A DNA stretch of 64,000 bases from Bilabrum cf. latius (Eukaryota): contig OZ237763.1 in NCBI GenBank assembly GCA_965178125.1, positions 124,001 through 188,000 of the forward strand, in the 5' to 3' direction. Each line of letters begins with the position of its first letter. Position 1 is the first letter of the stretch. Shown here piece after piece: positions 18,650 through 54,600 of the stretch. Position numbers and translations under genes: made by a program. The notes under the pieces are model-generated. The model did no database searches, was not told the origin of the DNA, and was given only the letters and a program-made list of their open reading frames with translations.

Positions 18650-18999
18650 TGAGTAATGCGGGCGATGGCTTTAGACTAAGTTACATTTTGTACGTGTTGC
18701 CTTGCGCGAGCCATCGGCAGTGATTCTATTACACGGGTGGTGCCACAGTGGATCGGATCGGATGCATGCTGAGCGCTCCTCATCCAGGTAAACACTTTAC
18801 TCTTGCTACGGTCATGTTCACGTGTATGTGTGTCTGTATCATTCATTGCATGCCTGCCTCCTAGCGGGCGCACAAAGCACGCTGGCTCTGCTGGCAGTAG
18901 CAGCAACTTGCTTGTGCCGCTCTTGCCCTGCCCGGCCGCCGGGGCTCCCGCGTGTCATCCTTCTCGACGAGCTTTCTATGCTTCCACTGCTGGGATGCG

Positions 19000-19643
19000 T
19001 CACTTCAACACTCGAAACAATTTGGGCGCGACCTGCAGGGTGTGGATCGATTCGGGGGGGGCAGCCAGGCAGGGGGTGAAGGCGATTCAACCATATCGGG
19101 TATTGGGGTAATGGCTTGCGAGCAGGGATCACTGGAAGCCATGGCTACGCGACATGCGCAGCACAATATGTTCTGCACGGAACTCACGCACTTGTCCACG
19201 CATGTCCAGTAGTCCATCGCCCAGCCCTCGCACGTCCCCTTGCCCTTGTCATTGATTCGCTTCACGCAGGACTGGTACTTGGTCCACTGAGACCCGCAAG
19301 TGGTGTGGCACTCCTTTTCAAACTTGGGCTTGGGATCAACCGGGTCAGACTGAGAGGAAAGGACACAATACAGACGCAGTTGATGCGAGTGCGATGGATA
19401 GGGCCAGAACGATGAAGTACAGCGACGAACACGGCACGCAGATGGGCTCTGTCTCGACAATCGATAGTAGTAGATACAATTCGGGCAACGACACTGGGAT
19501 CTACGGACACCAGGTGCTGCCTGTGAGCGTCGCATCTGCCCCCAACATGCGGTCTCCGTGTGCAAGTGCTATATGGCGCAAACAGGCACCGCAGCACAAC
19601 GTGCTGCCGAGGACCACGCTAGATATAAGCAAATTCTCACCAT
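19000..19643 (-). CDS. QCR6: Cytochrome b-c1 complex hinge subunit; exons 19643-19641 (ATG only), 19349-19188, 19032-19000
   Basis: M|SDPVDPKPKFEKECHTTCGSQWTKYQSCVKRINDKGKGTCEGWAMDYWTCVDKC|VAPKLFRVLK-TGA, with the Cys spacing and CVAPKLF end typical of UQCRH/QCR6. Confidence 0.9.
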
Positions 19644-23589: not shown

Positions 23590-24525
23590 ATGGCATCTTC
23601 TGGCGCCGGCGGGCTTTTAGGCCCCAAGGCAGATCCGCCACCGTCGCTGATGGGCTTCGACGACGCCCTCCCCATGGAGCCGAACGCAGCAACGGCCCCG
23701 CCTCCCGCAAAGGTGCGAACAGGCAAGGAAGCACAGGTGGATGAGATCTTGAATTCTATTTTGCCACCCAGGTGAGTTGGTTTGTCTATCCAGAATACGA
23801 TCGGCCCGTGGTAGCTGGCGCTAGCTTTTGGAACCGGGCAGAACGCTAGCAATGTAGTCGACAACGGATAAGGCGATTGAAATCTCCTGCAGCCACGTAC
23901 CTTGTGACAATCTATGCCTCTTAAACAAGTAAGTCTTATCTCCGTTTCCTTTGTTTCTTCAAGCCGTCGCAGGATGTGGGAGCAAACCGACGGTTCGGCT
24001 TGGGTGCAGTACGTTTCGAAGGCCCCCGCCGAGCGCGTGGACGTCGACACGCTCGAGGCTGCTTTGGAGCAGAGGCTGATGGAGAGATAGGCGCGAGAAG
24101 GTGGCATTTGCTCCGTGCGAGAAGACCTGTTCCGGCAAGCCTTCGACGAGCTGATTCGGCAGGTGACGCTCAACAGCCCGGAGCGGGGCCTGCTCCTCAT
24201 GCGGGTGAGGGACGAGAGGAGGATGGCGCTCGACGCCTACAAGGCCCTGTTCGAGAGCTCGATCGTGTTCGGGGTGCGCAAGCAGCTTCAAAGCGAGGAG
24301 GGTATGGACAGGATGTCGCTGACGGTGAGGGAGCTGGAGGAGGACAAGAGGCGCCTCGAGGCCAGGGTGCTCCGGCTGAGGCACCAGAAGGACGCGATGG
24401 ACAAGAGGAGGAGGGAGAGGAGGGCACTGGATGCGTCGGCCAGGAAGGAGGAAGTTGACCTGCTGAGGCACGAGAACTAGCAGCTGGAGCAGTTCCTCAG
24501 GTCGCTGCCGGGTGGCAACAAGTGA
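23590..24525 (+). CDS. DNALI1: Axonemal inner-arm dynein light chain p28; exons 23590-23771 and 23973-24525; TAG at 24088 and 24478
   Basis: ILNSILPPR|MW...WVQYVSKAPAERVDV...RLMER*AREGGICSVREDLFRQAFDELIRQVTLNSPERGLLLMRVRDE...LLRHEN*QLEQFL. Ends TGA. Confidence 0.93.
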
Positions 24526-31790: not shown

Positions 31791-32094
31791 ATTTATTTTG
31801 ACAGGGCACTTCTTGGGAAGATCTGCAACTATGTGCAGATTATTTGGTCTTCACGATTGGCGCGCCAACGAACTGCAACTGCAGATTGGTGTGATGAGTG
31901 CGATTGACCATCGTCGGCGCTGCGGCGCAACACACCCGGAAATGTTCGTGCGTTGTACGTTGTGCTTAAGAACTATTGGTGAGCCTGTGTAGCTTCCATT
32001 CCGACTATGCTTTCCTTTCTTTTCAGTTGGGAGCACCCGCACGCACGCGCCTCGAGGGAGGCAGGTGCAAGACGACCCCAGGACCGGCCCCGTG

Positions 32095-34508
32095 TTACCT
32101 AGACCCAGCGCCAGCCCCTTTGCCAACGCCCGCACCCGCACCCGCACCCGCACCCGCGCTCTCCTCCCCTCCTTGCCCCTCCCCCCCCTGTGGCCCTTCG
32201 TCCCCGTACACCTTCATGTCCGTGATGCCCAGGTCATCGTCCTCCTGCTGCGTCCTGTCATACCTCACCTGCACCAGCCGAGGATCCGCCCACCCGGGTC
32301 CCTCCTCCCCGTGCCCCTCCATCTCCATGTCCTTGCCCCCCTTCGGCGCTCCACTCGCCGGACCCTCCTCCCCACTGGCGCGAGCCGCGGCGATCCGCCG
32401 AGCCGCCGCCTCTTCCTAATAGGGCGAGTGCACCCACGAGTTGGCCATGGGGTCGATCACGCGCAGCTCGAAGGGCTCCTTGCCCTGGGCGAGGCCCTTC
32501 AGGCGACCCAGGAACCGCATCAGGTTGCTGCTCTTGGCGCGGTCAGCGGAATCGAAGCTGGCAGACTGGAAGGGGTTGCTGCTGTCGAGCTGCTCTGCGA
32601 TCTTCTCTAGCAACCCCTCCACGGTGGTGTACAGCCCGCCCAAAGTGCCGTGCTGCATCACGAGCCCAACGTCTGGCACCTCCACCAGCGCGGTGTCGCT
32701 CTTGATGACGTCCCTGCCCAGGTCAAGCTTGACGGCCTCGCCCACACTCATGGGCGTGCCGTCGGGGGCCAGTGGGGATCCAACCCGGGAGTCCAGGAGC
32801 TCAGCCAGACCCGCTACCGCGTCCGCTGCGGAACCGGCCGCCATGGCTGCCGCGGCGCCGAGCGGAGCCTCCGCCCCCGCGCCCCCCGAGGCCGCCTTGG
32901 CTGCCTCCTCCCGCGCCTTGGCCGCCGCCTCCGTCACCGCCCTGGCCCTGCGGACAGCCTCCTCCCCGCCCACGTACAGCACCTGCCTCGTGCCCTAGGC
33001 AGGGATGGCCCCGCCTCCCTTCACCTCCACCTCCCGGAACCCGCACTCGTCACACAGCATGGCCATGAGGATGACCTCCTTGAAGTGCGGCACGTCGGTC
33101 ACGCACATCTTGACGCGCACGTCCACGCCGCAGCTGGGGCAGGCGGACGGAAACGCCATGAGCTCCTTGGCCTCGGTCGTGCGGGAGCTGTCGAACACGA
33201 GGGCCTCCCAGCCGCTACCCTTGTTCCCTGAGGCCGTGGCGCGCGCGCGGTCCGTCTCCCCCCGGATGTTTCCTCCCGTCTTGTACCCCGACCCGGAGCC
33301 GCCCTCCCCGGTTGTAACCGCCTAGCTCCCCCGCATCAGCCGGGTGTCCCCCTCGATGTCGTCCTCGCCGCCATCGCCATCGCCCTCTCCCTCCCCGTGT
33401 TCCCCCGCGCCCCCGGCCCCGCCCGATGGTCTCTCCTGCGCCGCGCCTCCCTCCGGATTCAGCCCCGCACGCAGCATTTGTTCCCTGGACCTCCGATAGA
33501 AGGCCGCCTTGAGCCCCGGGTCGGGCGCGGGTGCCCCCGGGTTCTCCACGAAGCTGTTCCCCGTGATGTCGTCCAGCTGCAGCTTGGTGGGGAGGGCCCC
33601 TTCCTCGGCGGTGGCGATGGCCCTGAGGCGGTCGATCATCGACCCCACGGTGTCTGCGAGCGCAGGGTCCATGGCCCGGCGGACCGGCTGCTGTTCCTCG
33701 AGAGTCGAGGCGGCCGTGGTCAGGAGCCCCTCCACGGTGGTGAAGACGCCCTTCTGGGTGTTGGCTGGGATCTCGAAGGAGAGGGAGGGGATGGTGACCA
33801 CTGCCTTGTCGCCCTTGATAATCTGGCGGTCCAGGTCCTGCGGAGAGCGGCGGGCGGGATCGATGGAAAAGCGTGGAATGGAAGATAGCACGAAGTGCAG
33901 CGGCGCTCGGAAACAATCAAAAACCGGCGGCTTGGTTTCTCTTGGGTTGCTCAAGAGGGGCGGGATAGTTCCGCGCCTACCCTCCCATGATAGCTTGAAC
34001 GAATTCGCGCAGCTTTGTGGTGCTTGGATGCTGGTAAGCGACACGGCATAGGAGAGCAGCGCGAACAACCGTCGCGATGCAAATATTCTTGCCTTACATC
34101 CTTCGTGCGAATGGTCAGCTCGTACCGACACCCTTTCTCTTGGACTTCAGCGCTTTGAACCTCAGACGATCTGAATCCACACTCCTCGCACTTGAATGCC
34201 ATGAGAATTACGTCGCGAAAAAATGGAATCCGAGTGGGCATCACGCTTGTGATCCCATCGTCGCCACATTGCTGGCACAAAGACTTAAGCCGCATCACTC
34301 CATCCTCATTCGGATCGAATTCGAGTACGCCAGGCGAAGCTCCGGCACCCTCAGGTGCCTCCTCGTTACTGCCGGCAGCTGCAGATGAAGGGGCCGTGGA
34401 GTCGCCAGCGGACCCGGCAGAAGCACCGGCCTCAGATGACACTCGCGATGTTGCCAATTCTCCAATATCTCTAAACACTTCTTCCTGCCCATCGCCACTA
34501 GAAGCCAT
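32095..34508 (-). CDS. ZPR1: Zinc finger protein ZPR1; exons 34508-34098 and 33837-32095; TAG at 33322, 32995, 32416
   Basis: Two C4 zinc fingers (CQQC..IPFFRDVILMAFKCEECG; CPSC..VPHFKEVILMAMLCDECG), each with an A/B domain (TTVEGLL). The conserved C-terminal DPRLVQVRYDRTQQEDDDLGITDMK lies after the third TAG. First non-TAG stop is TAA at 32095-32097. Confidence 0.93.
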
Positions 34509-34647: not shown

Positions 34648-37642
34648 ATGTTTGTGTTTGTCGAGGTAAGAATAATTGAAGTTTGAGTATATTTTTGTTC
34701 ATTTGGATTGGTTTGGTCTAGATTTCGGCTGAGTGAAGGCCGCAGAATCCATCGAACGCTGCGCTTTCCGTGACAAGTGAAGGAACATGTGGCAGGCTTA
34801 GACCTTGAAGGGAACCTGTGAAACGGCAAAGATGCAAAACTGGATTTGTTTTCGATGGCATTTTGACGGGAGATTGGCTCGCACCATCTGCCCCATGCCC
34901 GCAAGATGGTGCATCCGAGTTGATGTTGCTGTTGGCCCGCACAGCGTCATGCCCATTGGGCATCCCCCGCCGCCTTCCTTTACGTCTGCAGCAAGTGGCA
35001 TAGTAATCACGCCATAAATTTTATTCACAAATAATGCATCTTTTGATTCGTCGCAGGGTCTCGGCGAATCGCTGTCCCAGCTGCAGCTGCCATCCACGGC
35101 ATCTGTCAGCGAGCTGCGGTGCGCGGTCGCGTGCGCTGCCGGTGCCCCCCGCGCCGGAGACGTGATCGTGTCCGCCGGCGGAAGGCCCATCGTGGGCTCT
35201 TCCCTGGCATCTGCCGGCGTGCGAGCCGGCGATTTCATCCAGGCGCGCCTACGGATCTGCGGCGGCGCGCAGACGGCCGTACCCGGCATGGCGGTCAGCG
35301 CGCAGCCCCCCGCTGCGTTCGGTGGGCCCGCGGGAGGCGCTTCCCAGGGTGCCAGCGGTGTCACGGGCGCCCCTTCCGCTGGACCCGCGGGCTCCGCCGC
35401 CCTGACGGGCGGTGCCCCCACTGCCCCCCAGCGCGTGGCGCTGTACGTGGGCGACCTTGCCCCCGCCGTCAACGAGCGCACGCTGCACCAGCTCTTCTCC
35501 CAGGTGGCCCCCGTGCAGAACGTGCGCGTGATCAGGCACCACATCACCCGGCAGTCCCTGGGGTACGCCTACGTGAACCTGCACTCGACCGCGGACGCCG
35601 AGCGCTGCATCGACATGCTCAACTACTCGTCCCTGGAGGGGCGCCCCATCCGCATCATGTTCAGCAATCGGGACCCATCCAAGCGCAGGAGCGGCAAGGG
35701 CAACCTCTTCATCAAGGGGCTGCCCCCGTCCTTCAACTCCAAGGACCTCCACGACTTCTTCCAGGGGTACGGCTTCGGCGAGGTCGTCTCGTGCAAGGTG
35801 GCCCTGGATGAGCAGGGCAGGTCAAAGTGCTACGGCTTCGTGCAGTTCGCCAACGACTCGGACGCCACGCAGGCCATCGACAAGGCCAACGGGATCCGCC
35901 TGGAGGACCACGTGATCACCGTGGAGAGGTACCGCTCCAAGGCGGAGAGGGGCGCGGCCACGGCCTGGAACAACGTGTACGTGAAGGACATCCCCAAGAA
36001 CATGGGCGCAGAGGCGCTCAAGGGCATGTTCTCGCCCTACGGCGAAGTCAACAACGCGGTCGTCATGACGGACGCCGAGCAGAAGTCCAAGGGCTTCGGG
36101 TTCGTGTGCTTCAGGGACGGCAAGGGGGCCCGCAAGGCGGTCATGGCCCTGCACGGGAAGCTCCTCCGTGACCCGGAGGTGCCCGACGCCGAGGTGGCAG
36201 GGCAGGAGAGCGTGGAGCAGTACGAGAAGGAGCTGGAGGGTGCCCTCAAGGGATTCAGGAGGGAGCTGCAGGCCGTGGATGACCCCGAGCTGGCGGCGCA
36301 GATCATCGAGGAGAAGAGGGCGAGGGCGGCTGGAAAGCCCACCCCGGCGGCCAAGGAAGGGCCCGAGGAGGACGAGGAGGAGCAGAAGAAGGCGTCTCCG
36401 GCCGCGGGCGCCGCAGGAGGGTCTGGGGCGGCCGGGCCCAGGAAGAGCAGGCGGACGGCCAGGACCGTGACCACCGCTGCTGCCGCGGCCACCATCGGCG
36501 TGCCGCCGGAGGAGACCACGGTGATCCGGCCCCCCCGCGGGTACAAGAGGCTGTACGTGGGCCGCGCCCTCAAGAACGCCGATCGGCAGAGGCAGAAGCA
36601 GGCGCGCAAGGAGAGGGAGAGGGAGATGAGGGTCAAGCAGCTGGCCGGCCACAGCGTGTACGTGCGCAACCTGGACGAGTCCGTGGACGAGGACACTCTG
36701 CGGGCCGAGTTCCGTAGGTTCGGTACCCTGACCTCTGTCAAGGTCATGCGCGACAAGACGGGGCGCTCCAGGCTCTTCGGGTACGTGGGGTTCACCTCGG
36801 CGGAGGACGCGATGGAGGCCATCCGCAACATGGCGGGCCGGCTGCTCTACGGCAAGCCGCTCTACGTGAGCCTGTGGCAGCCCAGGGAGCAGCGGAGGGC
36901 GCAGATCGAGCGCGCGAGGAGCGTGCAGATGGCGCAGGCGGAGTTCATGCGCCAGGCGCAGATGATGGGGGCGGACCTGTCCTCCCCCGAGGTGCTGCAG
37001 GCGGCCGTGAATTTCTCCAGGATCGCCATGGGCGGCATGCCGGGCATGGGCATGGGCATGATGCCCGGCTTCGGGATGGGCATGGGCATGGGCGGCATGG
37101 GCATGGGCGGCGGGTTCGGCATGATGGGTGGCATGCGGGGAGGACAGGGCTTCACGCAGGAGCAGATGGCGATGATGCAGCAGCAGCAGCAGGCGCAGGC
37201 GGCTGCGGCGCAGCAGGCCCAGGCCCAGGCCCAGGCCGCTGCCCAGCAGCAGGCGCAGGCGCAGCAGCAGGGCGGCCAGGGGCAGCAGCAGGGCGTGGGT
37301 TTCTCCGGCCAGGGGCAGCAGCAGGGCGGCATGGTGGGCGGCCCCGTGGTTCCCCAGGCCCCTGGGATCCAGGCCTCGGAGCTGGCCAAGCTCAAGCCGG
37401 AGGAGCAGCGGCAGCAGATCGGCGAGAGGCTGTACCACATGCTGGAGCCCTCGCAGGGCCCACGCACGGGCAAGATCGTGGGCATGCTGCTGGGCATGGA
37501 GGTCACCGAGCTCATCAACCTCCTCGAGTCTCCCGATGTGCTGGCCGAGCAGGTGCAGCAGGCCAACGTCGCCATCGACCAGCAGTCGGACGGCGGGAGC
37601 GCGGCGGCCAAGGCCGACCCCGCCAAGGCCGGGCCCCAGTGA
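34648..37642 (+). CDS. PABPC: Cytoplasmic poly(A)-binding protein (4 RRM + MLLE) with N-terminal ubiquitin-like domain; exons 34648-34665 and 35057-37642
   Basis: LYVGDL...SLGYAYVN, GNLFIKGL, NVYVKD..SKGFGFVCF, VYVRNL; MLLE motif QRQQIGERLY...GKIVGMLLGM. Proposed first exon ATGTTTGTGTTTGTCGAG|gtaag. Ends TGA; no TAG. Confidence 0.9.
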
Positions 37643-40352: not shown

Positions 40353-43300
40353 TTGGTTGACCGGACAGCACAGATCGTCCTGAAAGTCAGCAGGGGCCCC
40401 AGCGGTGCATCTGCTGAGGGGCACGGAGGACGAGAGGCTGACACGGTAGATCACCCACAGCACTACATTGAAGCTCTTGATTTCCTGTCGCAGACACACT
40501 GGTACTGGACACTCGCTAATTTAGATCTATCCAGATTGCGGGGCTTCGCTGGCGAAGGTTCCCTGCACCAGTCTCGACAAAACTCCCTTGTCTGCAAGTT
40601 TGAGATTGAAAATCGAATTTCGTGTTTAGTTGCTACTCATTCCCTTATTACTAGAATGCATAGCCACAAGACCGCGTCACGGTTGCAGGTGTAGCGCACT
40701 GAGAGCCGCCACGAGTTTCTAGACCGTGACTTGCCCCGAACTTGGGCTGATGTGCTGTCCCCGGGGAAGACACCCATTATAGAGGCTACAAATGGCGACA
40801 CGCGGCTGCATGCACTCGTATCATACGCGTATGTCAGCGACGAAGCTGTCGCCGAAGCAGCAGCATCCTCGGCAAGCACAATCAACGCTCAGAACAGCCG
40901 TGGCTGGACCGCCCTGCATAGCGCCTCGGCCAGCTGTTACTACGAAGGAGTGCGTTGTCTGATACAAGCTGGTGCTGACATGCTCGCCAAGACGGGTGAC
41001 GAATCGAAGCAAACACCAGCACATTTGGCAGTACGGAGCGGAGCCGGCAGCCCCGACATTCTTCAGCTACTGCTCAGCCACGGGGACACCGCCGGTGCTG
41101 CCCAAGCAATTAAAGCCTCGATTGTACATGATTCACACATATCTGACAGCCCGTTGGCAACAGAACCAGACGCCCGAGGGGCCAGCCCACTCCTGCTCGC
41201 AGCCAGCCGGTGCCAGCTTCCGGGCCAGGACGGAGATGACGCGGTGAGCTGTCTACGAATCCTCCTCCGATCCGTCGAAGGGATGCTGGATTTAATTGAG
41301 ATTGATTCGAATGAGGGAGTTCAAATGGTACTGCAAGCTCTCGTGGGTGCTGCATGGCACCATGGGAAGGACTCGGCTGGTGGCCTCGCTGACACTCAGC
41401 CGTCGGGGCGAGATGGCACTGCCAGTGGCAGTGCGAGTGCGGTGGGGTCTGCCTCTGGCGGTGGTGCGTGCGTGATGAGTGCACTGCATCTTGTGGCACT
41501 AGCCGGCAGAACAGACGCGGTGGAATCAATTCTAGGTGCCATGGACAGAGTGGTCCTCGCGGGCCGCGGCGATACGAAGGCAAGGGCGCGAATTGCGGCC
41601 GGCGTCCTGGGGCTGAAAGGTGCATTACACGGTGGGGCCAGCCCCATCGAGCTAGCGCAGGGCATGAACAAGACCCACGGCGCGTCTCGTGTCGACAGCA
41701 CCGATGGCGATGGCGCTTCATCCCCATCCTCGGCTGCAGGGGCAGGGGATCTGCTGCGGAGGTGGTCGCAGCGGTGGCGGCACTTGGCACGGGCGGACTC
41801 AGGGGCACAGCACGACGTCGCACTCGCAGCGTAGCCCACGGCTAGTGGGGCAGCCAGCGTCAATGAGTCGACCACTCTCGCCTTGGCCCTTGCTAGGTGC
41901 ACCGCACTGCAGCGCCAACTGGACGACGCAGAGCGACGCGCGGCAGCCGCCGAGGCGCGAGCTGCTGAAGCCGAGGCCCGATTGCAGCGGGTGCAGGCCG
42001 TGACCGGCACTGCTGCACACAGCTCGATAGTAGCACAGCACGATTCCTCTGCGAGTCCGCCTGGGCAGGATTCCAGCGCATTGCATTCGGCTCTGCTTCC
42101 CTCCCAGCCAGCGGTGCCGATGCTGTCAGCGGAGGAGGAGCCGAGCCCGAGAATGTGGGTGCGTTGCCTCGCCCCTGTGTCTGCAGACAGCATCGACACT
42201 CGTGCTGCTTCTGGTGGAGAGCATGCCCCTGGTGAATAGACCCACCCGTATTTCTGGTGTCCTGAGACGAACGAATCCTCATGGGAGCCCCCCGTCGGTG
42301 CAGCTGTTGTGGGGTAGCACGAGTGGGCCTTGATGGAGCAGCAGGGCGAAGATGAAGAGGAACACTAGAAGGACCTGGTTGGCAAGTATGCATCTGTAGA
42401 CGGGAAGGGCAGAGTAGAGAGCCGTGGGGAGCTCACAGCCTCCCATCCTTCAAGGGGGCGGGCGAGGCACCAATAGGAACAACAACTAGAGCCTGGACAT
42501 GCTGCCACCGCCGAGAGCAAACCCCAATTCGAACCCTTGATTGCAAACGATGCCGTCAGAGGTGGCATCTCGGCAGCAGAGACACCTGCAGCTCCAGCCC
42601 CAGGCCCTCTGGCCCCGAAGGAGACCCCGGTAGGGATGCCCAAGCGGCACGCCGAGATCTGGAGCAGATTTTTCCAGAATGCCCTGTCGGGTGCCACGGC
42701 CGGCGGGCTAGCCTCACAACGAGGGTCACGCAGCGGTGCCCGTAGTGCAGCTGTAGTGGTGGAGCAGGCTGCCGCAGAGGCGAGGCGAGCTCTCTCCGCT
42801 GGGGATACGCAAGCTCTGCGGCGGGTCTTTGCCGAGGGCCACCTGCCAGCAGCCAGCAGCGTCACGGCCAAGCCAGGCAATGGCTCTGCTGCTGGTGCCA
42901 GTTCACGAGGGGGCGCCAAGCGTTAGGCGACGCTGCTGCATGCCGCTGCGTGGAAGGGCAGCCTGCACTGCCTTGCGGTGCTACTGGAGGACCTAACTGG
43001 TGAGCTTGACCTGGACACACGGGATGCCAAGGGCAACTCGCCGCTCATCGTCGCGTGTGCCGGTGCGGCGCGGTTTGGGACTGGCAGCAGCAGCAGCAGC
43101 AGCATGCCTGGAAAGCCAGAGTCGAGCGGCACCGGCGGTGAGACACCCACAGAGAGGTAGCACCTGGAGTGCGTCAGGCTGCTGCTGCAAACCGCTGCAG
43201 ATCCACTGCACACGAACTCAGTTGGAGACACGGCGCTGCACGTGGCTGCGGCTGGTGGCGCGGTCGAGGCGTGTCACCTTCTGCTAGAATACGGCGGGGA

Positions 43301-44708
43301 GCAGGCCCGCCTCGCCCGGGGGGAGCTTGGCGATACGCCCAGGGAGCGAGCGCTGGCGTGGATCCCAAGCATGGCGCCCCACACCGCTGAGAGATGCGCC
43401 GCGGCGGCTCGCCTCATCCAGCGCTGGCAGCCTCTTGTGAGACCGAAGCAGCGGAGCACTGCTCACTCTTCCTCCCCTGCTGCTGATACAAATGGTAGGC
43501 CTCGGGCCGCAGCGGGAGGAACGCGTGGTCCCACGGCAAAGGCGGCAGTACCGCCGCAGAGCACCTCCCTGCGAGGGGTAAGAGCACCTGCTGGTGAGGT
43601 GCAACCCCCAAGCCTGCCCAGTCCGTCACATCGCCAGGGTAGGGAATCGAAGCGACGGGGCCAGGGGCAAGGGCAGAGGGGTGCAGGCGACGGCCAGGCT
43701 CTCGACACCCCGGCGCGGGGGCGCGGCGCATCCGCTTCGGACTGGAGCGGCTCCCCTGCACCTCCCAACGGTGACGTCCGGGATCGGATCAGCTCAGACT
43801 CTGATGACGCCTCAGACACCGCAATGCAGCCAAGCGTCATGGGCAGCAGGCGGCCACCCCATCTGTCGCAGTTGGGAGGTAATCCGGCTGAGCTACACAC
43901 GCAGCAGGCCCTGCAGCCGCTGATAAATCCGCAGAACCAGCAAGCATCCGAGGTAGCCGCTTTGAGTCAGTCCACTACAGCCGGTACCGCTGCACGCCAG
44001 CGGGAGCCGCAGAGTACCGGCACCATCAAGGCCTTGGAGGGAGAACCAGCTCCGGAGGCCTCCGTTCCCTAGGCGGCCGGGTTCACAGCGCCGAGGATCC
44101 ACACGGCACGTGACTTGGCGCAAGGCGACGCGCCAGGTGAACAAGACGGCACCGGCCCACCCACGGCCTCTTCGATCTCGCCAGGGGACGTGCTGGGTGA
44201 CACTGTGGGTGGTGTAGAGCCAGGATCAATCCTGTTCCCCACAGGAGATGGCACGAATGCGAATGCGGGTGTGCAATTTGGCGGGTCTCAATCAGGGATG
44301 CTAGCTCGAGATTTGCTGCCGATCGGAGCAACTCAAGCGGAAGCGCGAAGGGCCGGCGAACAGCACGGTGGCGGGTTGTTCGCTGGGGGGGATAAGCTGG
44401 CATTCGGCTCTCCGGCTGAGAGTTTGCGATTCGCTGGCGGCAACGGGGCCGCAGTACCGACGGAGGCACTCGAGACGCCTGCTCGAGGTCTGCGTGCCAG
44501 CGATAGACCTGCAGGATCGCCCACTGGTCTCGGGGCTGCTTCAGGTGGAAAGCGAAGCGGAGGGCCGTTCAAGTCGCCAGCAAGAATGAGTCCGACAGGG
44601 GGCCGAGCCACACAGGTGGACATGTTTGCTATGTAGTCTCCCCAGCGGGAACATGTGGCTGGGTACGGAAAAGGGGGGACCAGCCTGGAGCTTAGCCACA
44701 AGCCCTGA
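40353..44708 (+). CDS. Ankyrin-repeat / coiled-coil / WW-like protein; 10 in-frame TAG; 5' structure (possibly from about 39500) unresolved
   Basis: ORFs 40353, 40731, 41883, 42537, 42978, 43242 and 44115 share one frame, joined by TAGs (40692, 41832, 42237, 42315, 42366, 42474, 42924, 43158, 44070, 44634). Ankyrin motifs GWTALHSA, QTPAHLA, TLLHAAAWKG, GNSPLIVA, GDTALHVAA; WW-like PYFWCPETNESSWEPP. Ends TGA. Confidence 0.7.
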
Positions 44709-45645: not shown

Positions 45646-48600
45646 TCAGTCACCACTGCCAGCAGAACCGCTGGAGAGGCGCGACCTCGAGTTGCGGCGC
45701 ATGCCCTTGAGCCCCTTGAGAGACGAGGGGCGGGCAGCGGCAGCGGCGGCCATCAGAGAGGCGCTCTCGGATCCAGCGGGGGCACCTGACCCGCCCGTGC
45801 CCGTGCCCGTGGCTGTCGTTGGATTGAAAACGCTCTTCCGCTGGCGGGAACCACGGGCGGCCTGGCGCGCTCTGCCGGCCCCGCTTCCGCCGGATGCCAC
45901 GGATGAGGCACGCATTGCGCCGGCACCCACAGTCTCAGCACCGGCGGCGTCCTTCTTCAGACCCGAGTTTTCGGCGCGCAGCTGCTCCACATGCTGCAGG
46001 AGATCGCCGTACGCGTTCCTGAACAGCTGCCAGGACGCCTGGTCGGGGGCCTGTTCCAGCCCGAGGATGCCCTCCGCCGTGGCGTCCAGCTGGGCGTTGG
46101 ACATGGCCTTCTTGGAGTCGGCGCCACCCGGGCGCTTCATCATCATCGGGTTGTTCTCAGTGGTGATCTTGTCGGTGCCGCCTGCCTCAGGGTCCGTTGC
46201 GGCAATCTGCGCGCGAGAATCCCCCCTGCCGCCGCCCTTGGTCTTGCCGACTGCCAGCTTCTTCTGCTTGTCGTCGTCGGCAGAGTTCTTGCACATCTCC
46301 ACAATGTCCAGGATTATGACGGTGCCGAAGTAGAGGAGCGTGCTCACCACGATGAGGATCACCAGGATGGTCAGCGTGTCGCGCTGGCTCTGGTAGAAGT
46401 CGCTGTCCAGACGGCCCGACTCAAACATGATGCCGGCCAGCACCACCATGATGGCGCTGAACAGCAGCACGGCCTCCACCGTGTTGTAGTCGAACAGGGC
46501 AGACCCGAACACCACGGAAGACAGACTCACGAACAGTGCGCGTGCGTTCGTCACATCCAGACCCTTGCTGAACGTGGCCCGCTTGCGACCCCGAGACTCG
46601 ATGCGCTGGATGTCGGTCCAGATCTGGTGGTGCAGTGAGGACGGATCCACGCGGCGGGTGATGTGGTCACGCACCACGGCGTCGCGGTCGCCAGGAGACA
46701 TGTACGGGTTGTTGTGCACGTGAGCCGAGTACGACAGGAACAGCACCAGCAGAGCCATGGACAGCTGGAACGCGGCGTTCTGCACGAACATGAGAGCCGT
46801 CAGGGCGAGGCCCAGCTTGCGGGCCAGGATCACCAGCACCCACGCGACGTAGTTGGGCGTGAACTGCATGTACAGCCTTGAGTACCTCTTGCGCATGAGC
46901 AAAGAGCCCTCAGTGGCGCTCGACTTGGTGTCACCGGTGCCCTTGGCACGCAGCAGCTGATCCGCCACGATGTCCTTGCGGTACATGAACAGGATGTACG
47001 TGGCCCAGGCGGGGAAGCCGATCACGTACACGGCCAGGGTCAGGATCGTGAACGGAAGCAGCGTGCGGTAGACGCCGCCCGGCTTGTTGCACGGCTCGAA
47101 CACGGCCTGGAAGTAGCGGATCACGTTCCCGTCCTCGTCGTACTCTGGCGGGTCAGTGGGCGTGCAGTTGAGAGCGTCGGCAGTGAGGCGCGCCAGGTTG
47201 AGATACAGCACGTAGAACATCACGCAGACCGCCTTGATGAGCATGTCCAGGTGGTCGGCAGAGTTCTTGAAGCCGTGACCCTTCACGCACCACGTGTACA
47301 GGAAGTAGACCACGAAGAACACGCCGAACAGCACCATCACAGCAGCAGGCACCAGCATGAGGAAGGCCCACTTGGTGATGTACCCCAGGTCAGGCACGAT
47401 GCACTCGGGGGCAGTGATCTCGAGGTTGAGGTTGAAGGCAGACAGCACGTGAAGCATCTCCCGGATCATGGGGGGCCATGACACGCGCGCCGATGCGAAG
47501 ATGGCCAGTGACTGCAGGTAGTCGATACCCGACGCAGCCAGCGCTACGTTGATGTCACGCTTGTTGATCCAGTACGCACCGAACGCACCTGCGATCACCA
47601 GAATCGCGAATGCGGCCATGAGGATCCACGGGTTGTCCGGGCACTCAACACACTGGCCCGCCTGCCTGTAGTAGCCGTCTGCGCAACTGCCGCATCGGAA
47701 CGACGGTGCTTCGGACTTGTAGGCAGCAGCGCACTGGTTGTCACCGATGCACGCGAAGTCAGGCTCGCACTTGACGATGCACACGTCACGGCCAGGCACT
47801 CGGTTGGATGCAGGGCACGCATCGGCCATGCCACTCGTGACAGAATCGGAAGAGTTGAGGTTGTACCACCCGGCCTGCGGCACAGGCATGGTGTGCACCC
47901 GCCTCGAGTCGTCGTAGCCCTGGCAGTCGGCACCCAGCGGGCACGGCACGCAATGCTCGCCTTCCACGCCGAATGCGCCATCATCACACGCGAAGAACAC
48001 GCCATCGAGCGGAGGTGCAGCCGGCACGAAGCCACTCTGCCCCGCTACCTGCAGCGACACGTTCTTGAAGCCCACGGTCATGTGAGGCACCGTGCAGTCG
48101 ATCTGCCGGGTGGTCTCTCCCAGCGGGTCCCCACTGCGGGGGAAAGCCCCAGGCACGCGAGAGACCTACACGCACTGGACACCGGCCACGGCGCCCACAA
48201 CCAGCCGCTCCTGCGCGGTCCATCCCTGCCTGTCAGCCAGCTCGGGGTCACCGTAGTTGTACCCATACAGGGCCACGGTGCGCCTAGGGGCGGATTCGGG
48301 CAGCCAGTAGGTGGCGTTTGTAGCTGCCTGCTGGCTCCGCCTCTCCTCCATGCTAGAGCCCCAGTTGTGGAGCAGGTCGGTCAGTGGCCGCTGCGTCTGC
48401 TCGTTGATGATGATTGCATTGCCGATCACGCCCTCGCCGTCAGCTGCGGCTGATAGATCGCGCGCATCCCGGAGCGCATTCCAGTAGTTGCCGAGCTCGC
48501 CAGGAGGAGACATGCGCAGCTGCTGGGGCACGACCCGGTCGATCCGCGGCGGGCGGTAGGCGAAGCGAAGCGTGTTGGACTCGGCATGCAGACCGCCCAC

Positions 48601-51600
48601 ATCGGGGAATGTCGTGGCACCGCCCTCTCCGCCCTCGACCACGCGGCCCTCGCTCAGGGCAGCGTCCTCCAGCACCACAGACACGGGCCGGTTGACGCCG
48701 ATGCCGCCAGGGGCACGCAGCACGATTTCGTTCTCGGTGCGCTGCTCGATCGTGTATTGGCAAGCCGTCTCGTACACGCCCAGGGGCCTGCCGCCCACCA
48801 GGGTTCGAGCGTCCGAGAGGCATGACCGGAAGAAGGTCACGCGCAGGTAGGCCGTCGGGACCGAGGCCGCCTCATCGATGGAGATGCCGGGGCTGAAGTA
48901 GCCCAGAGAGAGCTGCTGGGAGGTGCGGGTGGTGTTCCTGGGGGTGGGGCCGAAGAGGTGGCCCCGGATGGTCACCTCAAAGCCGCCCTCGGTGCCGCCT
49001 GTCTGCGGGGCCAGCGACTCGAGGATGGGTGCAGCGTACCGCAGACGGGGATGGTTGTCGGCGTCAATGTCGATGTTCAGCAAGCGCCCGCCAACAGAGA
49101 GCTCAATGTCTCTCTGCAGCACGGCCGGCGGCACTTGGAACGTGATGGCCTCGTGCTCGTGCACGAACACCATGTGCTGCGCCACCTCGCCCTCGCCCTG
49201 GAACGACTCGAGGCCGTCACAGCGCAGCTCCTGCGCACGACGCCGGTAGGTCCAAGCAGTGAACACGCACAGCTCGTATGTCTGGCTGGAACCACCGGAT
49301 GGGAGCAGCCCACGGCGCCCGAAGTTCCTGCCCAGGATCGTCACGTTGTACCCACCCCCTGACGGCAGGTTGGCCAGCACGATGCCCCCGGTGGACGTCA
49401 CCTCCACAACGGGCCCGCCCACCATCATCGCACCGGTGTCAACCAGCGGCGACGGCAAAGCTGCAATGGGCATCGCATCGCGCTGCAACACACCGGTGGG
49501 ATCTAGCTGATTAAGTACTTCCGGGTTGCTGAAGGCGGGGTCCATGACAGGATCCACACCATGCAGAGCCAGTCCAGTGACCTCGGGTCCGTCGTACGAC
49601 AAGGCCGCAGCCATGGGATCACCTACCTGTCCGGCCACCGTCACGCGCACAGGCAGGTTCTCGCCGAAGCCCTCAGGCAGCGTGCAGCGCACCTGGTCCT
49701 GACTCAGACGCGTGGCTCCGGAGCACTCCACGTAGGCGTACTGCGCCCCCTGCAGCCTGCGAGAGCTGGAGGACAGCCCCGTGGGCAGGCCGATCTCGAC
49801 CTTGACCAGAGGCTCGGCAGTGGATCCGTTTACAGAAGACGGCACCTCACGACCAGGGATAGTGGTGCCGAAGTTGGTTCCAGACACGGTCAGCGTGGAG
49901 CCGCCCTTGGTAGGCACGGTGCCGGAGGGCTGCGCCGACACGCCCAGCACCTCGGGGGACTGGTACCTCAGAGGCACGTCCCGGCTGACCAGCTGCGCGT
50001 TGCCGCGCATGGCAGTCACGAGCGCGTTTGTGTCCCTCGAGTTCTCCAGCGCGTTGGCCTGGGAGGCAGCCTGCTGGTCCAGGCTGGTGATCGTGGTGCC
50101 GAGGGCCTGTGCCACGTCAGCGGCTCGCTGCGCCAGGTGAAGCGACTGGTCGCCCACCATCACACGGAGGGAGTAGGGCTGGGCATCGCCGTAGTAGAGA
50201 CCATCGCCCTCGCCCATGGGCACGGCCGTGATGAAGCAGTCATGCAGCGAGTCCTGCAGCCCATTGGAGTCCGACTCGAGCACGCCCTAGGGGGCGCAAT
50301 TGTGCCTCGCACTCGCGTCGATCACGCTGCCCGATGGGTGGCCATACGTTAGAATTCCGTCTGCGCCGCACGTGTACCCGCCGATCAGGCCGCCGTCCTG
50401 TGCCTCAGCTGCCTCGACATACGCGCACTCTCCCAAGTTGGCGCCACGCACGCGGACGTACCCTCCCAGCGTGGGGATCTCGAGCCAGCGGCCCTCGGAG
50501 GCCTGGTCTGCGCCAGTCACCACCGTGCGCCAGTTGGACGCATCTCGACGAGCGTTGTAGTTGGTGATCTGTGCAGGGTCAGCCGCCCACACGTCCACCA
50601 TCACAGCGACAGGCGGGGCATACGAGTACTTGGAATCACCAGCGGAGAAAGTCCCGTCCCTGTCGATCCAGATGGACTGGTCGCTGCCCTCCCCAGGAGG
50701 CGCCAGGAAGCTCACCACGTAGGCCTCCCCGGGACCAACACCGGTCTGCGAGTCAACAACACGCTGCTTGATCGTCGCTGGGCTCTCACTTGCAGACATC
50801 CACACGCTGTTGACGGGGTCCCACACACGGCAAGGCGTGGCCTCAGCCGCGGTGGCACCCTTCGCCAGCACCCTCAGGTTGGTGACGAACTGCAGCCCAC
50901 TCACCCGCATGGTGATGCCGTTCTGGCCAGGGCCCATAGAGTTGTCCACTGGGTGCCCACGGGTAGGCACGTTGTCGATGTTGCCCTCCAGCCCAGACAC
51001 GTAGGGGGCCAGGTCAAGGTACTCGATGTTGTCTGTCTGCACCGACTGCCCCGAGGGCCACGCCTGTGACTCGATGGACAGGATCACGCGGGCCGACTGC
51101 TCGCTCGTGTACATCAGCAGCCTGTCGTGGTGCCAGTCTCGCATGTACACGGGCTTGCCTAGCAGAGCTGGCTCCAAAGCCACAGACAAACGCACAAACC
51201 GACCAGAGCTCACCGCTCGGTTGGCCTGTGGGTGTCCCAGGTTGGTGCCGAACACCTTCACCTGTACCACGTCCTGCTGGTCGCACGTGAACGGGTCACC
51301 GGCGCTGAAGGGGCAGATGCGCTCCTGCTCCGAGTCGACCTCGCCAGTGCTTGAGGAGTTCACACTGGGCGCCACGTAGCCTGGCTCCAGCCACGCAGGC
51401 CTGGTCACCACAGCCCGGTCCAGGGTAGGGTCCTAGTAAGAGAAGATCGAGTTGAGCGTGATTTCGGACAGCGAGTCGGGGTTGATGGTGGCGCTGGCCT
51501 GCGTGTCGGACTGCCCCGTCTCGGACTGCGACACGGGGGCGAGGCCCACCTGCACTGGGATGGCGCGGCCGGCTCCATGCACGGGCAAGGGGAAGCGCAC

Positions 51601-54600
51601 GCGCTGCTGCCTCGAGTTGCCGCTGTCGATCTCCACGGAGGACGGCGCGATGCGGTCCGAGCCGAAGTTCACCATCACGCGATTGAGCGGGTCTGCCAGA
51701 GGCACGTTCCTGGTCAGCAGCTCGATCTGCGTGGGGTTGTCTATTGGCGAGTAGGTGTCGGCCGTGGCAGGCGTGACCTGAAGCACCTCAGCCGATGCGA
51801 AATCAAAGAAGGCGTCGTCCTCGGTTGGTTGAGGAGAGGCCTGGTCTGCCACCATGATGCGGAACCAGTGCCTCTTGCCAGAGGCAGGGGGCAGCGTCAC
51901 CTGAAGATGCGTGTGGTTCACGTGCGTGAAGAGAGTCCGGCGCACCTCGTACTGGCCACCTTGCTGGCCAAACGTCACACCCTGCAGCAGAGTCAGCGAG
52001 TTTTCGCCGAACGTCAGCTCCGGGGGCCCAAACTGCTCACCCACAATCCACAGCCGCTCGCCACCGTTCGGGTCTGCATCGACCACCGGAGACCACTCCT
52101 CGCCAACCCTCCACACTGCGTGCACCTCCGGCATGGCGTAGGCAGTCGTGGGGTTTGTGGACCGCTGTCCGTCCAGCAGGATGCTCCAGCGGAGGGCGCG
52201 ACCCGCACCAGGGGCGGTGTCGCACATTATGGCCTCGTGCGCAGTCACCAGCCTGCACCCGCTGGCCTCGAAGGTGACCTCGTCCTCGGGTCCGTTGTCC
52301 AGAGACACAGTGTACTCCACCAGTATGCGAGAGGCAAACACAGACTCAGGCACGGTCGGCCCAAAGTTGCGGCCGTAGACCGTCACCGGCTCCCCACCCG
52401 GGGTGTCGGCATCAGCAGCACCGGGGCCCTCGAATCGAGAGATCGTGGGTGCAGCGTATGAAGCATTGCTCTCATGCAAGTTGGAACCGAGGTTGGCCAT
52501 GACCACGCGGAACTCGAGCATGGTGCCAGTGCCCGGCACCATCACGCACTGCATCCTCGAGTCACTGTCCACGCGGCAATCCGATGCCACATACCGCAGA
52601 GACGAGTTGGGTGGGCCATACCTCACCTCAGTGATGGAGCCCAGAGTGGCCAAGAAGGCGGGCCCGAAGCCAGACCCCTCCAGCTGCACCTGCCGCCCGC
52701 CACGGGTGTCCACATCCTCGCCGTTCCGCACGGCGGTCAGCATGGGCGGGGCGTACGACATGAGGCGGTTGTCAGCCGGGATCTGAGACACGCCTTCCGG
52801 TCCCTGGTAGTCAGTCACATCGTTGCTGCGAACACCGTCCACCTCCACGATGATCTCGTGGCCCGCACCCACGCCAGGTGCCACTTCGCAGTCGATCACG
52901 GTGTGAGCCTGCTGGGACGTGGCGAACGGCTTGGAGCAGGACTCCATTGTGTGCTCGTACTCATCCATCCCATCCGTGGTGGTGCCCAGCGAGGGAGACA
53001 CCGATGACAGCCGGTACATGACGGTGACAGCAGCCGAGGCGGGGCCCAGGTTGGCTCCAGTGATGCGCACGGTCTGTCCTCCTGCTCCAGACAGCATGTC
53101 CTTGTTGACGCCCTGCAGTCCCTGCACGCTCGTGACGTACGGGGTATCATAACTGAAGGGCTGTGAGCTCACTTGGTCAGCAGGCTGCTGGGATGCTATG
53201 ACGGGCTCTGGAGGCGTGTCGCCCACGAACGGTCCCGACAGCGAGGAGTAGCCCATCTCGCCGTTGATCACCAGCGCCCAGTGCAGGTTGGCGCCAGAGC
53301 CCTCCACGCTCGCGCAAGTGAAGTTGTGCTGCGGCTCGGCACCTGCAGGGAGCGTGGTCGTCTGGCACTCGAACCGGGCCTGTCCATCGGCCGACCCAGA
53401 CGGCCGCTGGTAGAACAGCCTGCGCTTGCCCACGGGCCCTAGGTTAGTGCCAGAGATACTGATCACAGTTCCACCATCAGTGGCCAGCTGGAATGCGCTG
53501 GGGTATACCATGGAGATTTCAGGGTCGGCGTAATCGAATGACTGCGAAGTGGCGATAATGGCCACATCGGAGTCCACGATGGCGAAGGGGGCAAATCCGC
53601 GACCGTATCCCATGCCGTCACCTGGGGTGGTGCATGTGAAGTACTCATCGGGCATGTGACCGGGCCTGCAGTTCTACATCTCCACCTTCTGCTCCATGCC
53701 AGTGGCTGGGTCAGTGCGGTTGAAGTGCACCCTGTACGTGGAGCTCACGCTGCCGAGGTACTGGCCCGTGAAGTTGCAGTCCACGGCCTGGGTGGCGATC
53801 ACGGGCAGCTGCTCGCAAGTGAACGAGTCGATGATGGGTGTGTCGGTCAGGTTGGCCCTCACCACCAGAGCTACTGGCTTAGTGTCCGTCAGGTTGCCGT
53901 CCGTCACGGACAGGTGAGCGTGATACACAGCTCGCACCAGGGCTCCTCCCGGCACCACGTCGGACAGGAAGGGCCTGAACTCGCCCGAGTTGCTCCAGTC
54001 CCGAGGCGTGGGCTTGTTCTCCACCGTGATCTTGCCCGTGGCCGAGTCGATCGCGAACAGGTTCAAGGAGCCGTCCGTCAGCGGCCCGGCCGTCATGCCG
54101 GTGGCTGTCGTGATGTTGCCAGAGGTGGCCAGGCTGTACGTGAGAGCCACCCGCCACATGCCGTTGTCCTCGTCCTGCACCTCGGGGTCGGGAGAGAAGG
54201 TGTTGAACTGGGTGCCTGCACCCGTACGCAGCACAGCACCGAACTCGTCCACGATGAGAACCTGGTCCATTGCGATCACGGGGGCATCGTTCACATCCCG
54301 CACCTCCACACGGAGCAGCTCCTCCACACGGTTGTCCGCGATGTCCCTGATCTCAATGATAGCCAGGAACTCGGGGGCGCTCAGCCCGCCGTCCTTGGCC
54401 TCGAAGTTGAAGGGCATGTCGTTGCTGTCCAGCTTCATGTACATCTGGCCAGCTGCCGTGATGCCTAGCCGCTGGGACTCGTCGAATGCGATGCGGAAGG
54501 TCAGGGGGTCGTTCTCGGGGTCAGTGGCGATGGTGGCCAGCGACACACCCACGGAGCTGCCGTTGCCCAGGTTCTCGTCGGTGAAGATGCGCGACCCTGG

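What the first reader, a model, noticed from the sequence alone, without database searches (positions are those of the whole stretch)
32095..32097. UAG and UAA appear decoupled: no internal TAA, TGA is the dominant stop, TAA probably ends ZPR1
Seen: I found no TAA inside any reconstructed coding region, even in AT-richer exons that use CAA and TAG freely. All but one of the complete genes end in TGA; ZPR1 first meets TAA, shortly after its conserved C-terminal motif. Established: UAA and UAG almost always change meaning together, and UAG-only reassignments (equivalent to translation table 15) have been reported in only a few eukaryotes, such as the fornicate Iotanema and some ciliates. Inference: UAG=Gln with UAA/UGA=stop, which would need an eRF1 that rejects UAG but accepts UAA.
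Basis: partly seen in the sequence, partly recalled or inferred. Interest (0 to 1): 0.8.

Follow-up and report, generated by a model that had tools for sequence, protein, structure and literature searches.

The report
UAG read as glutamine, UAA not
This GC-rich protist reads the stop codon UAG as glutamine but never uses UAA inside genes, a rare split of the two codons; whether UAA still ends genes rests on one ambiguous case.

Summary
In 22 gene models (16,523 codons) there are 55 in-frame TAG in 14 genes, 0 TAA and 0 TGA. Of 21 complete genes, 20 end at TGA. Only ZPR1 first meets TAA, at 32095-32097 on the minus strand.

TAG = Gln is well supported:
- One TAG in the dynein light chain gene aligns to Gln in 113 of 120 homologs.
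- A related species, found in three metagenome contigs (about 70-75% protein identity), keeps one ZPR1 TAG.
- That species has TAG at four aligned PABP sites where the window has CAG.
- Listed run contigs, some with spliced joints, pass through 5 of the TAGs with no base differences.

TAA is clearly not a normal sense codon. If TAA:TAG followed CAA:CAG, 14-19 TAA would be expected. P(0) is 4e-4 pooled and 2e-7 to 4e-6 per gene.

TAA as a working stop rests on ZPR1 alone and is only moderately supported:
- The candidate splice donor there has C at +5, against G in 7 of 7 defined introns.
- The 23 codons after TAA score more like GC-rich non-coding DNA than coding DNA, about 3:1.
- The relative's ZPR1 ends AGG-TGA-C, against AGG-TAA-C here.

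tRNA genes, eRF1 and the rest of the genome could not be examined. Verdict: probably a table-15-like code in a new, unplaced non-ciliate lineage.

The parts
32095..32097 (-). TAA, first TAA/TGA in the ZPR1 frame (codon 718); the candidate UAA terminator
32026..32094 (-). 23 open codons after the TAA. GC 0.77, basic and hydrophobic translation unlike the acidic Gly/Ala tail before it. Either 3' UTR or a C-terminal extension if UAA is read through
32023..32025 (-). Next in-frame TGA (codon 742). AT-richer sequence follows it
32098..33837 (-). ZPR1 exon 2, with in-frame TAG at 33322-33324, 32995-32997 and 32416-32418
   Evidence: Pfam jr-ZPR1 and Zn_ribbon_ZPR1; PDB 2qkd alignment; run contigs colinear over 32204-33385 with 0 other letters; TAG coordinates
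33838..34097 (-). ZPR1 intron (GTAAGG...CGCAG)
   Evidence: joint in runs X5, X7, X8; ends read
34098..34508 (-). ZPR1 exon 1, from the ATG at 34508-34506
23974..24522 (+). Last exon of the axonemal inner-arm dynein light chain p28/DNALI1, ending at TGA 24523-24525. TAG at 24088-24090 aligns to Gln in 113 of 120 homologs; TAG at 24478-24480 aligns to Gln in 77 of 120
35057..37639 (+). Poly(A)-binding protein, 861 codons: 0 TAG, 74 CAG, 0 CAA, ends TGA. The relative has TAG at 4 aligned sites where this gene has CAG
40701..44705 (+). Ankyrin-repeat gene with weak codon bias: 9 TAG, 21 CAA, 40 CAG, 0 TAA, ends TGA
6605..10924 (+). Protein kinase gene: 11 TAG, 0 TAA, ends TGA
45649..59340 (-). 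Single 4,564-codon exon of a giant membrane protein: 6 TAG, 0 TAA, ends TGA at 45646-45648
18989..19349 (-). Cytochrome bc1 hinge-like (QCR6-like) gene. When the exons are spliced as in the run contigs it ends ...KLFRVLK followed by TGA, an example of a conserved-looking C-terminus at TGA

Best explanation
The organism is an intron-poor, GC-rich flagellated protist of uncertain placement. Together with at least one related species it uses a nuclear code in which UAG is glutamine, UGA is the usual terminator, and UAA has not followed UAG into sense use. UAA remains a rarely used terminator, here at the end of ZPR1.

The most likely mechanism is inferred, not shown. A tRNA-Gln with anticodon CUA would read UAG only. 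No UUA-anticodon tRNA would exist, so UAA is still left to eRF1. UAG behaves as a minor Gln codon: 7.5% of Gln codons, and absent from the most codon-biased genes.
For: UAG = Gln
- The first DNALI1 TAG aligns to Gln in 113 of 120 homologs (Lys in 7), including the closest relative. The second aligns to Gln in 77 of 120.
- Four PDB p28/DNALI1 chains show Gln at the first site.
- The relative (contigs L001-L003) has TAG at the same ZPR1 site (...SPY-TAG-EEAAA).
- The relative has TAG at 4 aligned PABP codons where the window has CAG, 2 of them in near-identical contexts.
- Listed contigs of runs that show GT..AG joints are colinear with the window, with 0 other letters, across 3 ZPR1 TAG and 2 TAG of the 22-kb gene. 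Editing or hidden introns at those 5 sites are therefore unlikely.

UAA not sense
- 0 TAA against 55 TAG in 16,523 codons. P = 3.8e-4 pooled, and 2e-7 or 4e-6 per gene.
- There is no TAA opposite any window CAG or CAA in the relative.
- Every TAA inside a long TGA-bounded sense frame lies near its 5' end (introns or upstream sequence) or at the ZPR1 end.

UAA as a stop at ZPR1
- The candidate donor AG|GTAACA has C at +5. All 7 defined introns have GT[AG]AG with G at +5 (6 from run joints read from sequence).
- No joint at 32097 is among those listed.
- The 23-codon tail scores 4.36. GC-matched stop-free non-coding windows score 3.2 +/- 4.7 and GC-matched coding windows 12.2 +/- 5.1. Density near the tail's score favours non-coding about 3:1.
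- The relative's ZPR1 ends ...AGG-TGA-C, against ...AGG-TAA-C here.
Against: - UAA termination rests on 1 gene of 21.
- The TAA is followed by 23 open, GC-rich (0.77) codons ending at TGA. With them, the tail after the conserved motif is 54 residues, against 52 in the relative. Read-through to the TGA therefore fits about as well by length.
- My first, non-GC-matched score made the tail look coding-like: 3.36, above all 19 post-TGA windows.
- The tails are low complexity and not alignable, so homology of the two stop sites is not established.
- If TAA were an ordinary stop used at 20-30% of genes, 1 or fewer in 21 has P = 0.06 to 0.006. It must be rare.
- No tRNA gene, eRF1 or other part of the genome could be examined.
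- The listed RNA-run pieces end at 32204 or 32328, so the mRNA 3' end was not seen.
Confidence: 0.62

Rival explanations
1. Both UAA and UAG are glutamine (table-6-like, TGA the only stop). UAA is just extremely rare, because of GC bias or a scarce decoding tRNA. ZPR1 then runs through the TAA to the TGA at 32023-32025.
For: - UAA and UAG nearly always change together (Discussion of PMC11687900).
- 20 of 21 genes end at TGA.
- The frame stays open for 23 GC-rich codons after the TAA and the GC drop comes after the TGA.
- With read-through the tail is 54 residues, against 52 in the relative.
Against: - Even counting ZPR1 as sense, 1 or fewer TAA in 56 draws has P = 0.003 pooled, and much less per gene.
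- Genes with smoothed CAA shares of 31-48% and 19 TAG have no TAA.
- The GC-matched codon score of the tail favours non-coding about 3:1.
- The tail's basic and hydrophobic translation is unlike the acidic tails of the 12 aligned homologs.
Confidence: 0.18
2. UAA is effectively unused, neither a sense codon nor a regular terminator. The ZPR1 TAA is not the working end of the ORF: either it is removed by splicing at AG|GTAACA, or it is a recent CAA-to-TAA change in a dispensable disordered tail.
For: - Only 1 TAA among 21 stops.
- The relative has a GT at the same place (AG|GTGACG).
- The listed RNA-run pieces do not reach the site.
- The tail has not decayed into AT-rich sequence.
Against: - Both candidate donors have C at +5, against G in 7 of 7 defined donors.
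- No such joint is listed (20 joints were not shown).
- ZPR1 homologs end shortly after the conserved motif, so no further exon is expected.
- A recent truncating TAA would still mean that UAA terminates.
Confidence: 0.15
3. The code is standard. The in-frame TAG are pseudogene lesions, unrecognised introns, RNA-edited sites or programmed read-through.
For: None specific. It is the default for any eukaryote.
Against: - 55 TAG in 14 of 22 genes, with 0 TGA and 0 TAA in the same frames.
- TAG at a site where 113 of 120 homologs have Gln.
- A TAG conserved between two species, and exchanged with CAG.
- Run contigs unchanged and colinear across TAG.
Confidence: 0.02

Closest known systems
Iotanema spirale (fornicate): UAG = Gln with UAA kept as stop; NCBI table 15 type
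   Same: UAG alone reads as Gln, and it is a non-ciliate (reported in the Discussion passage of PMC11687900). The window shows the same pattern of in-frame TAG without in-frame TAA.
   Different: The window encodes a respiratory complex I subunit (NDUFV2-type) and a bc1 hinge-like protein. From recall, not checked here, Iotanema is an anaerobe, so this would be a different lineage. The window's DNA is 63% GC. Here UAA termination is seen at most once.
Protocruzia tuzeti and two phyllopharyngean ciliate lineages: UAG = Gln, UAA not reassigned
   Same: The same codon split, explained there by a CUA-anticodon tRNA that does not read UAA (PMC11687900 Discussion).
   Different: I judge this is not a ciliate, from recall of ciliate genome features: the window is a 64-kb contig at 63% GC with long exons. 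The best named protein matches are stramenopiles and a haptophyte.
UAR = Gln codes (table 6: many ciliates, ulvophycean green algae, Hexamita, Streblomastix, Amoeboaphelidium)
   Same: A stop codon captured by Gln, with TGA carrying nearly all termination (20 of 21 genes).
   Different: In those codes UAA is a sense codon too. Here there are 0 TAA against 55 TAG in 16,523 codons.
Other UAG-only reassignments: uncultured rhizarian (UAG = Leu), Scotinosphaera (UAG = Ser), ciliate PL0344 (UAA = Lys, UAG = Glu)
   Same: UAG and UAA have different meanings (PMC11687900 Discussion; abstract of PMC10553269 in the listing).
   Different: The amino acid differs. At the best-conserved TAG site, 113 of 120 homologs have Gln and none has Ser or Leu. 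One ZPR1 TAG does align mostly with Ser (6 of 11 homologs with a residue there), but in a variable stretch.

Membership tests
Table-15-type nuclear code (UAG = Gln; UAA and UGA = stop) | In-frame UAG at positions where homologs have Gln | tested here: met
   DNALI1: 113 of 120 and 77 of 120 homologs have Gln. The relative has TAG opposite window CAG at 4 aligned PABP sites. Mixed at variable ZPR1 sites: Gln or Leu, Ala, and mostly Ser. Lys in human GCDH.
Table-15-type nuclear code (UAG = Gln; UAA and UGA = stop) | UAA absent from coding frames | tested here: met
   0 TAA in 16,523 codons of 22 models, against 55 TAG. P = 3.8e-4 pooled; 2e-7 to 4e-6 per gene. This covers the window only, not the genome.
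Table-15-type nuclear code (UAG = Gln; UAA and UGA = stop) | UAA used as a terminator at the expected ends of genes | tested here: inconclusive
   1 candidate of 21 genes (ZPR1). Indirect support. The 3' end was not seen in RNA-run pieces, and 23 open codons follow.
Table-15-type nuclear code (UAG = Gln; UAA and UGA = stop) | UGA used as a terminator | tested here: met
   20 of 21 genes end at TGA. Endings resemble those of homologs in DNALI1; for TM9SF and the QCR6-like gene the resemblance is from recall. 0 in-frame TGA.
Table-15-type nuclear code (UAG = Gln; UAA and UGA = stop) | A tRNA-Gln with anticodon CUA, and no tRNA with anticodon UUA | not testable with these tools
   No tRNA gene in the window or in L001-L003. 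No Rfam match. No genome is held.
Table-15-type nuclear code (UAG = Gln; UAA and UGA = stop) | An eRF1 that spares UAG, or is outcompeted there, while releasing at UAA and UGA | not testable with these tools
   eRF1 is not in the window and no genome is held.
Table-6-type code (UAA and UAG = Gln, UGA the only stop) | In-frame UAA at Gln positions alongside UAG | tested here: not met
   0 TAA against an expectation of 14-19. No TAA opposite CAG or CAA in the relative.
Ambiguous stop/sense codes (Condylostoma, karyorelicts, Blastocrithidia type) | The reassigned codon also terminates at gene ends | tested here: inconclusive
   No gene needs TAG as its stop. DUF2961 has TAG two codons before TGA-TGA (18641-18652), which cannot be resolved without protein or ribosome data.

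The most novel reading that the evidence does not exclude
This would be an independent, previously undescribed origin of a UAG-only to Gln reassignment. It sits in an aerobic, flagellated, GC-rich, non-ciliate protist lineage with no close named relative, possibly a deep stramenopile. At least two species share it; TM9SF hits at 85% and 75% identity hint at more.

UAA would be held out of sense use and TGA would carry about 95% of termination. That is a living example of the first step that stepwise models place before UAR = Gln codes. RNA-type sequencing runs already exist for the organism, so the step could be studied directly.
Probability: 0.5. Interest if true: 0.75.

Novelty: new member of a known kind. 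Interest (0 to 1): 0.66.

Why it matters
UAA and UAG almost always share a meaning, and only a handful of nuclear lineages split them (PMC11687900 Discussion). A new, non-ciliate lineage with genomic and RNA-type sequencing runs and at least one sequenced relative would add an independent origin.

It would let three questions be tested directly:
- Does a single CUA-anticodon tRNA-Gln suffice?
- How does eRF1 treat UAG against UAA?
- Does high GC content, with few TAA or TAG stops to begin with, ease the capture of UAG?

There is also a practical point. Standard-code gene callers cut this lineage's proteins at every TAG. The relative's database entries for ZPR1 and DNALI1 both end exactly at TAG sites, so annotation of this genome needs the right table.

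Tried and rejected
- Whole genome: none is held.
- tRNA and RNA families: ARAGORN found none in the window, with or without introns allowed, and none in L001-L003. Rfam found none.
- Earlier findings of this scan: nothing by place, words or sequence.
- Run search: no RNA holder is listed on record. Runs X5, X7 and X8 are only guessed to be RNA, and X5 is flagged 'probably DNA'. I treat their contigs as transcript-derived because all three show GT..AG joints at five places, and X7 and X8 at a sixth.
- ZPR1 3' end in runs: the listed pieces end at 32204 (X5) and 32328 (X7). No joint at 32097 is listed, but 20 joints and 1,211 pieces were not shown. Neither the splice alternative nor the poly(A) site is settled. 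The runs showed no base differences from the window, so they gave no evolutionary signal.
- DNA alignment of the ZPR1 3' ends with the relative: good up to ...GGGGA[CT]GAAGG[GC]CC, not alignable after that. Homology of the TAA and TGA sites is not shown.
- First coding-potential score of the post-TAA tail: it looked coding-like. I rejected it because its background was the AT-richer UTRs, and replaced it with GC-matched windows, which reversed the reading.
- More DNA from the lineage: two scans of genome contigs (TM9SF trio, giant-gene pair) and one of viral contigs found nothing.
- Taxonomy: the Atlas gave only broad eukaryote clusters. In the quick ZPR1 tree the careful search did not finish. 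That clade is sister to three named ochrophytes at SH-aLRT 85. Best named DNALI1 hits are stramenopiles at 49-57% identity. Best named TM9SF hits are a haptophyte at 42% and transcriptome 'GECG01' at 46%. A search for 'GECG01' in papers found nothing. Placement stays open.
- UAG = Ser (as in Scotinosphaera) or Leu: rejected on the DNALI1 site and the CAG/TAG exchanges.
- Literature: searches found no paper in the held library describing a nuclear UAG = Gln code in a stramenopile or in a GC-rich non-ciliate protist. Subscription journals and supplements were not searched.
Full report
WHAT THE WINDOW IS

The window is 64 kb of nuclear DNA from a eukaryote, 63% G+C, with long exons and few introns. 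No whole genome is held for it. It contains no tRNA gene and no Rfam match.

I built 22 gene models using three sources:
- frames bounded by TGA only;
- Pfam;
- contigs of three runs (X5, X7, X8) that are identical to the window and skip GT..AG introns. The kind of these runs is only guessed; I treat the contigs as transcript-derived.

The models include glutaryl-CoA dehydrogenase, a C2/EF-hand protein, a kinase, NDUFV2, a DUF2961 protein, a bc1 hinge-like protein, TM9SF, the inner-arm dynein light chain p28/DNALI1, a PLD-like protein, ZPR1, PABP, an ankyrin protein, and a 4,564-codon Kelch / F5-F8-C / cadherin / TIG membrane protein with a paralog. The organism therefore has flagella and a respiratory chain.

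The ZPR1 CDS is 34508..34098 plus 33837..32098 on the minus strand. Its intron, 33838-34097, is seen in X5, X7 and X8. The frame first meets a TAA or TGA at codon 718, which is the TAA at 32095-32097. The next stop is TGA at codon 742, 32023-32025. The TAA lies 30 codons after the conserved C-terminal motif shared with mouse ZPR1 (PDB 2qkd) and 12 other homologs.

Across the 22 models (16,523 codons) there are 55 in-frame TAG in 14 models, 0 TAA and 0 TGA, with 584 CAG and 90 CAA. TAA is not missing from the DNA. The other two frames of the same segments hold 66 TAA and 132 TAG, and the unmasked 14.4 kb holds 172 TAA and 285 TAG.

If TAA:TAG followed CAA:CAG, 14-19 TAA would be expected. The chance of none is 3.8e-4 pooled, and 2e-7 or 4e-6 with per-gene ratios. 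GC bias alone therefore does not explain the absence.

Twenty of the 21 complete genes end at TGA. ZPR1 is the only TAA in the window that directly follows strongly coding-like sequence and is not an antisense shadow or intronic.

UAG IS GLUTAMINE

- In DNALI1 the TAG at 24088-24090 sits where 113 of 120 homologs have Gln and 7 have Lys. The closest relative, at 93% identity, has Gln there.
- The TAG at 24478-24480 aligns to Gln in 77 of 120. The relative's database protein ends exactly there, as expected if it too has a standard-code stop. PDB p28/DNALI1 chains agree at the first site.
- A scan of metagenome contigs with ZPR1 found three contigs (L001-L003) of a related species, at 70-75% protein identity and with the PABP-ZPR1-PLD gene order conserved.
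- In that species the ZPR1 TAG after ...NSWVHSPY is conserved as TAG.
- Four aligned PABP codons are TAG there and CAG here, two of them in near-identical contexts.
- At less conserved sites the picture is mixed: Arg and Met in the relative, mostly Ser in other ZPR1 homologs at one site, and Lys in human GCDH.
- Run contigs cover three ZPR1 TAG and two TAG of the 22-kb gene with no differing letter, so editing and hidden introns are unlikely.
- TAG makes up 7.5% of Gln codons. It is absent from the most biased genes (PABP, TM9SF, NDUFV2) and common in weakly biased ones, as expected for a minor codon.

IS UAA A TERMINATOR?

This is the weak point, because it rests on ZPR1 alone.

For a true stop at ZPR1:
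All 7 defined donors read GT[AG]AG with G at +5, and no joint at 32097 is listed.
(ii) The 23 codons after the TAA score 4.36 on a codon log-odds scale. Stop-free non-coding windows with GC of at least 0.7 score 3.2 +/- 4.7 (n = 369), and GC-matched coding windows 12.2 +/- 5.1 (n = 3,269). Density near the tail's score is about 3:1 for non-coding.
(iii) The translation of the tail (HGAGPGVVLHLPPSRRVRAGAPN) is unlike the acidic Gly/Ala/Glu tails of ZPR1 homologs.
(iv) The relative's ZPR1 ends ...AGG-TGA-C where the window has ...AGG-TAA-C.
(v) With no sense TAA in 16.5 thousand codons, the prior that this particular TAA is sense is low.

Against:
- The tail is open and GC-rich (0.77) up to a TGA, and the drop in GC comes after that TGA.
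- With read-through, the post-motif tail is 54 residues against 52 in the relative.
- The tails cannot be aligned.
- A first, non-GC-matched score made the tail look coding-like.
- The listed run pieces stop at 32204 and 32328, probably at the GCGGGT-type repeat, so the mRNA end was not seen.
- If TAA terminates, it is rare. One or fewer of 21 has P = 0.36, 0.06 and 0.006 for true shares of 10, 20 and 30%.

MECHANISM (INFERRED)

A tRNA-Gln whose anticodon changed to CUA would read UAG but not UAA. This is the argument given for ciliates in the Discussion of PMC11687900. UAA would stay with eRF1. UAG would be either no longer released or outcompeted by the tRNA. None of the tRNA or eRF1 steps could be tested here.

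COMPARISON WITH WHAT IS KNOWN

UAG-only reassignments named in the passages I read (PMC11687900):
- Iotanema spirale, Protocruzia tuzeti and two phyllopharyngean lineages (Gln);
- an uncultured rhizarian and a phyllopharyngean (Leu);
- Scotinosphaera (Ser).
PL0344, with UAA = Lys and UAG = Glu, is in the same passages; its abstract is in the listing.

The window fits the Gln type.

I judge the organism is not a ciliate, from recall of ciliate genome features. Because it has a respiratory chain it also differs from Iotanema, which I recall (unchecked) to be an anaerobe.

Its placement is open:
- the best named matches are stramenopiles for DNALI1 and ZPR1, and a haptophyte for TM9SF;
- the drop to the next homologs is steep, from 75-85% to 49% in TM9SF;
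- window + relative sit on a long branch in a quick ZPR1 tree.
The sister ZPR1 sequences are unbroken under the standard code, which suggests the change is confined to this branch.

Five literature searches found no description of such a code in a stramenopile or in a GC-rich non-ciliate protist. Subscription journals and supplements were not covered.

VERDICT

| Statement | My estimate |
|---|---|
| UAG = Gln | near certain |
| UAA excluded from sense use (in the window) | very likely |
| UAA still terminates | about 0.6 |

The finding is a new member of a known, rare kind of code, pending the genome-wide census, the tRNA set and the ZPR1 3' end.

Noticed in passing
45649-59913 (-) and 60417-63998 (+): Two head-to-head copies of a giant gene. 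One is a 4,564-codon single exon with Kelch, F5/8-type-C, cadherin, fn3 and TIG domains and a C-terminal multi-pass membrane part. The copies are 93% identical over the roughly 1,065 N-terminal residues that align, and both carry TAG at the same two codons. A short first exon and a GTAAGG...CGCAG intron (59403-59487) precede the long exon.
   Followed up: partly
35057-35470 (+); relative L003 minus strand: PABP carries an N-terminal extension of about 100 residues ending ...RLRICGG (relative: ...RLRLCGG). From recall, this resembles the end of a ubiquitin-like domain. Pfam gives only sub-threshold hints (PDZ_6 E = 0.005; YukD E = 0.09).
   Followed up: partly
37090-37099 (+): GGC insertions and a 3-base deletion differ among run contigs inside the Gly/Met-rich repeat of PABP. 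They are either length alleles or assembly slippage.
   Followed up: no
11963-12505 (-) and 13565-14128 (-): Two copies of a small gene share a C-terminal part of about 70 residues (...RRAVEAKRDARMVF.AARDGRPLEL...). The second follows a Gly-rich repeat. No family was assigned.
   Followed up: no
18641-18652 (+): The DUF2961 gene ends ...AAT-TAG-GTG-TGA-TGA: a TAG two codons before a double TGA. This cannot be told apart from a residual TAG stop without protein data.
   Followed up: no
32700-32990 (-); alignment A1 columns 533-607: The window's ZPR1 and its relative share an Ala/Glu/Gly-rich insert of about 75 residues just after the second zinc ribbon. It is absent from the 11 other aligned homologs.
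   Followed up: no
L001-L003 (related species): The gene order PABP <- -> ZPR1 -> PLD-like is conserved between the window and the relative. The relative has an in-frame TAA one codon upstream of the ZPR1 ATG, in the 5' UTR.
   Followed up: partly
27966-29999 (+): A low-complexity protein with RG, SA and SD repeats and a weak NUFIP1 match (E = 1.4e-5). It has the highest CAA share in the window (13 of 27 CAR codons) and 6 TAG.
   Followed up: no
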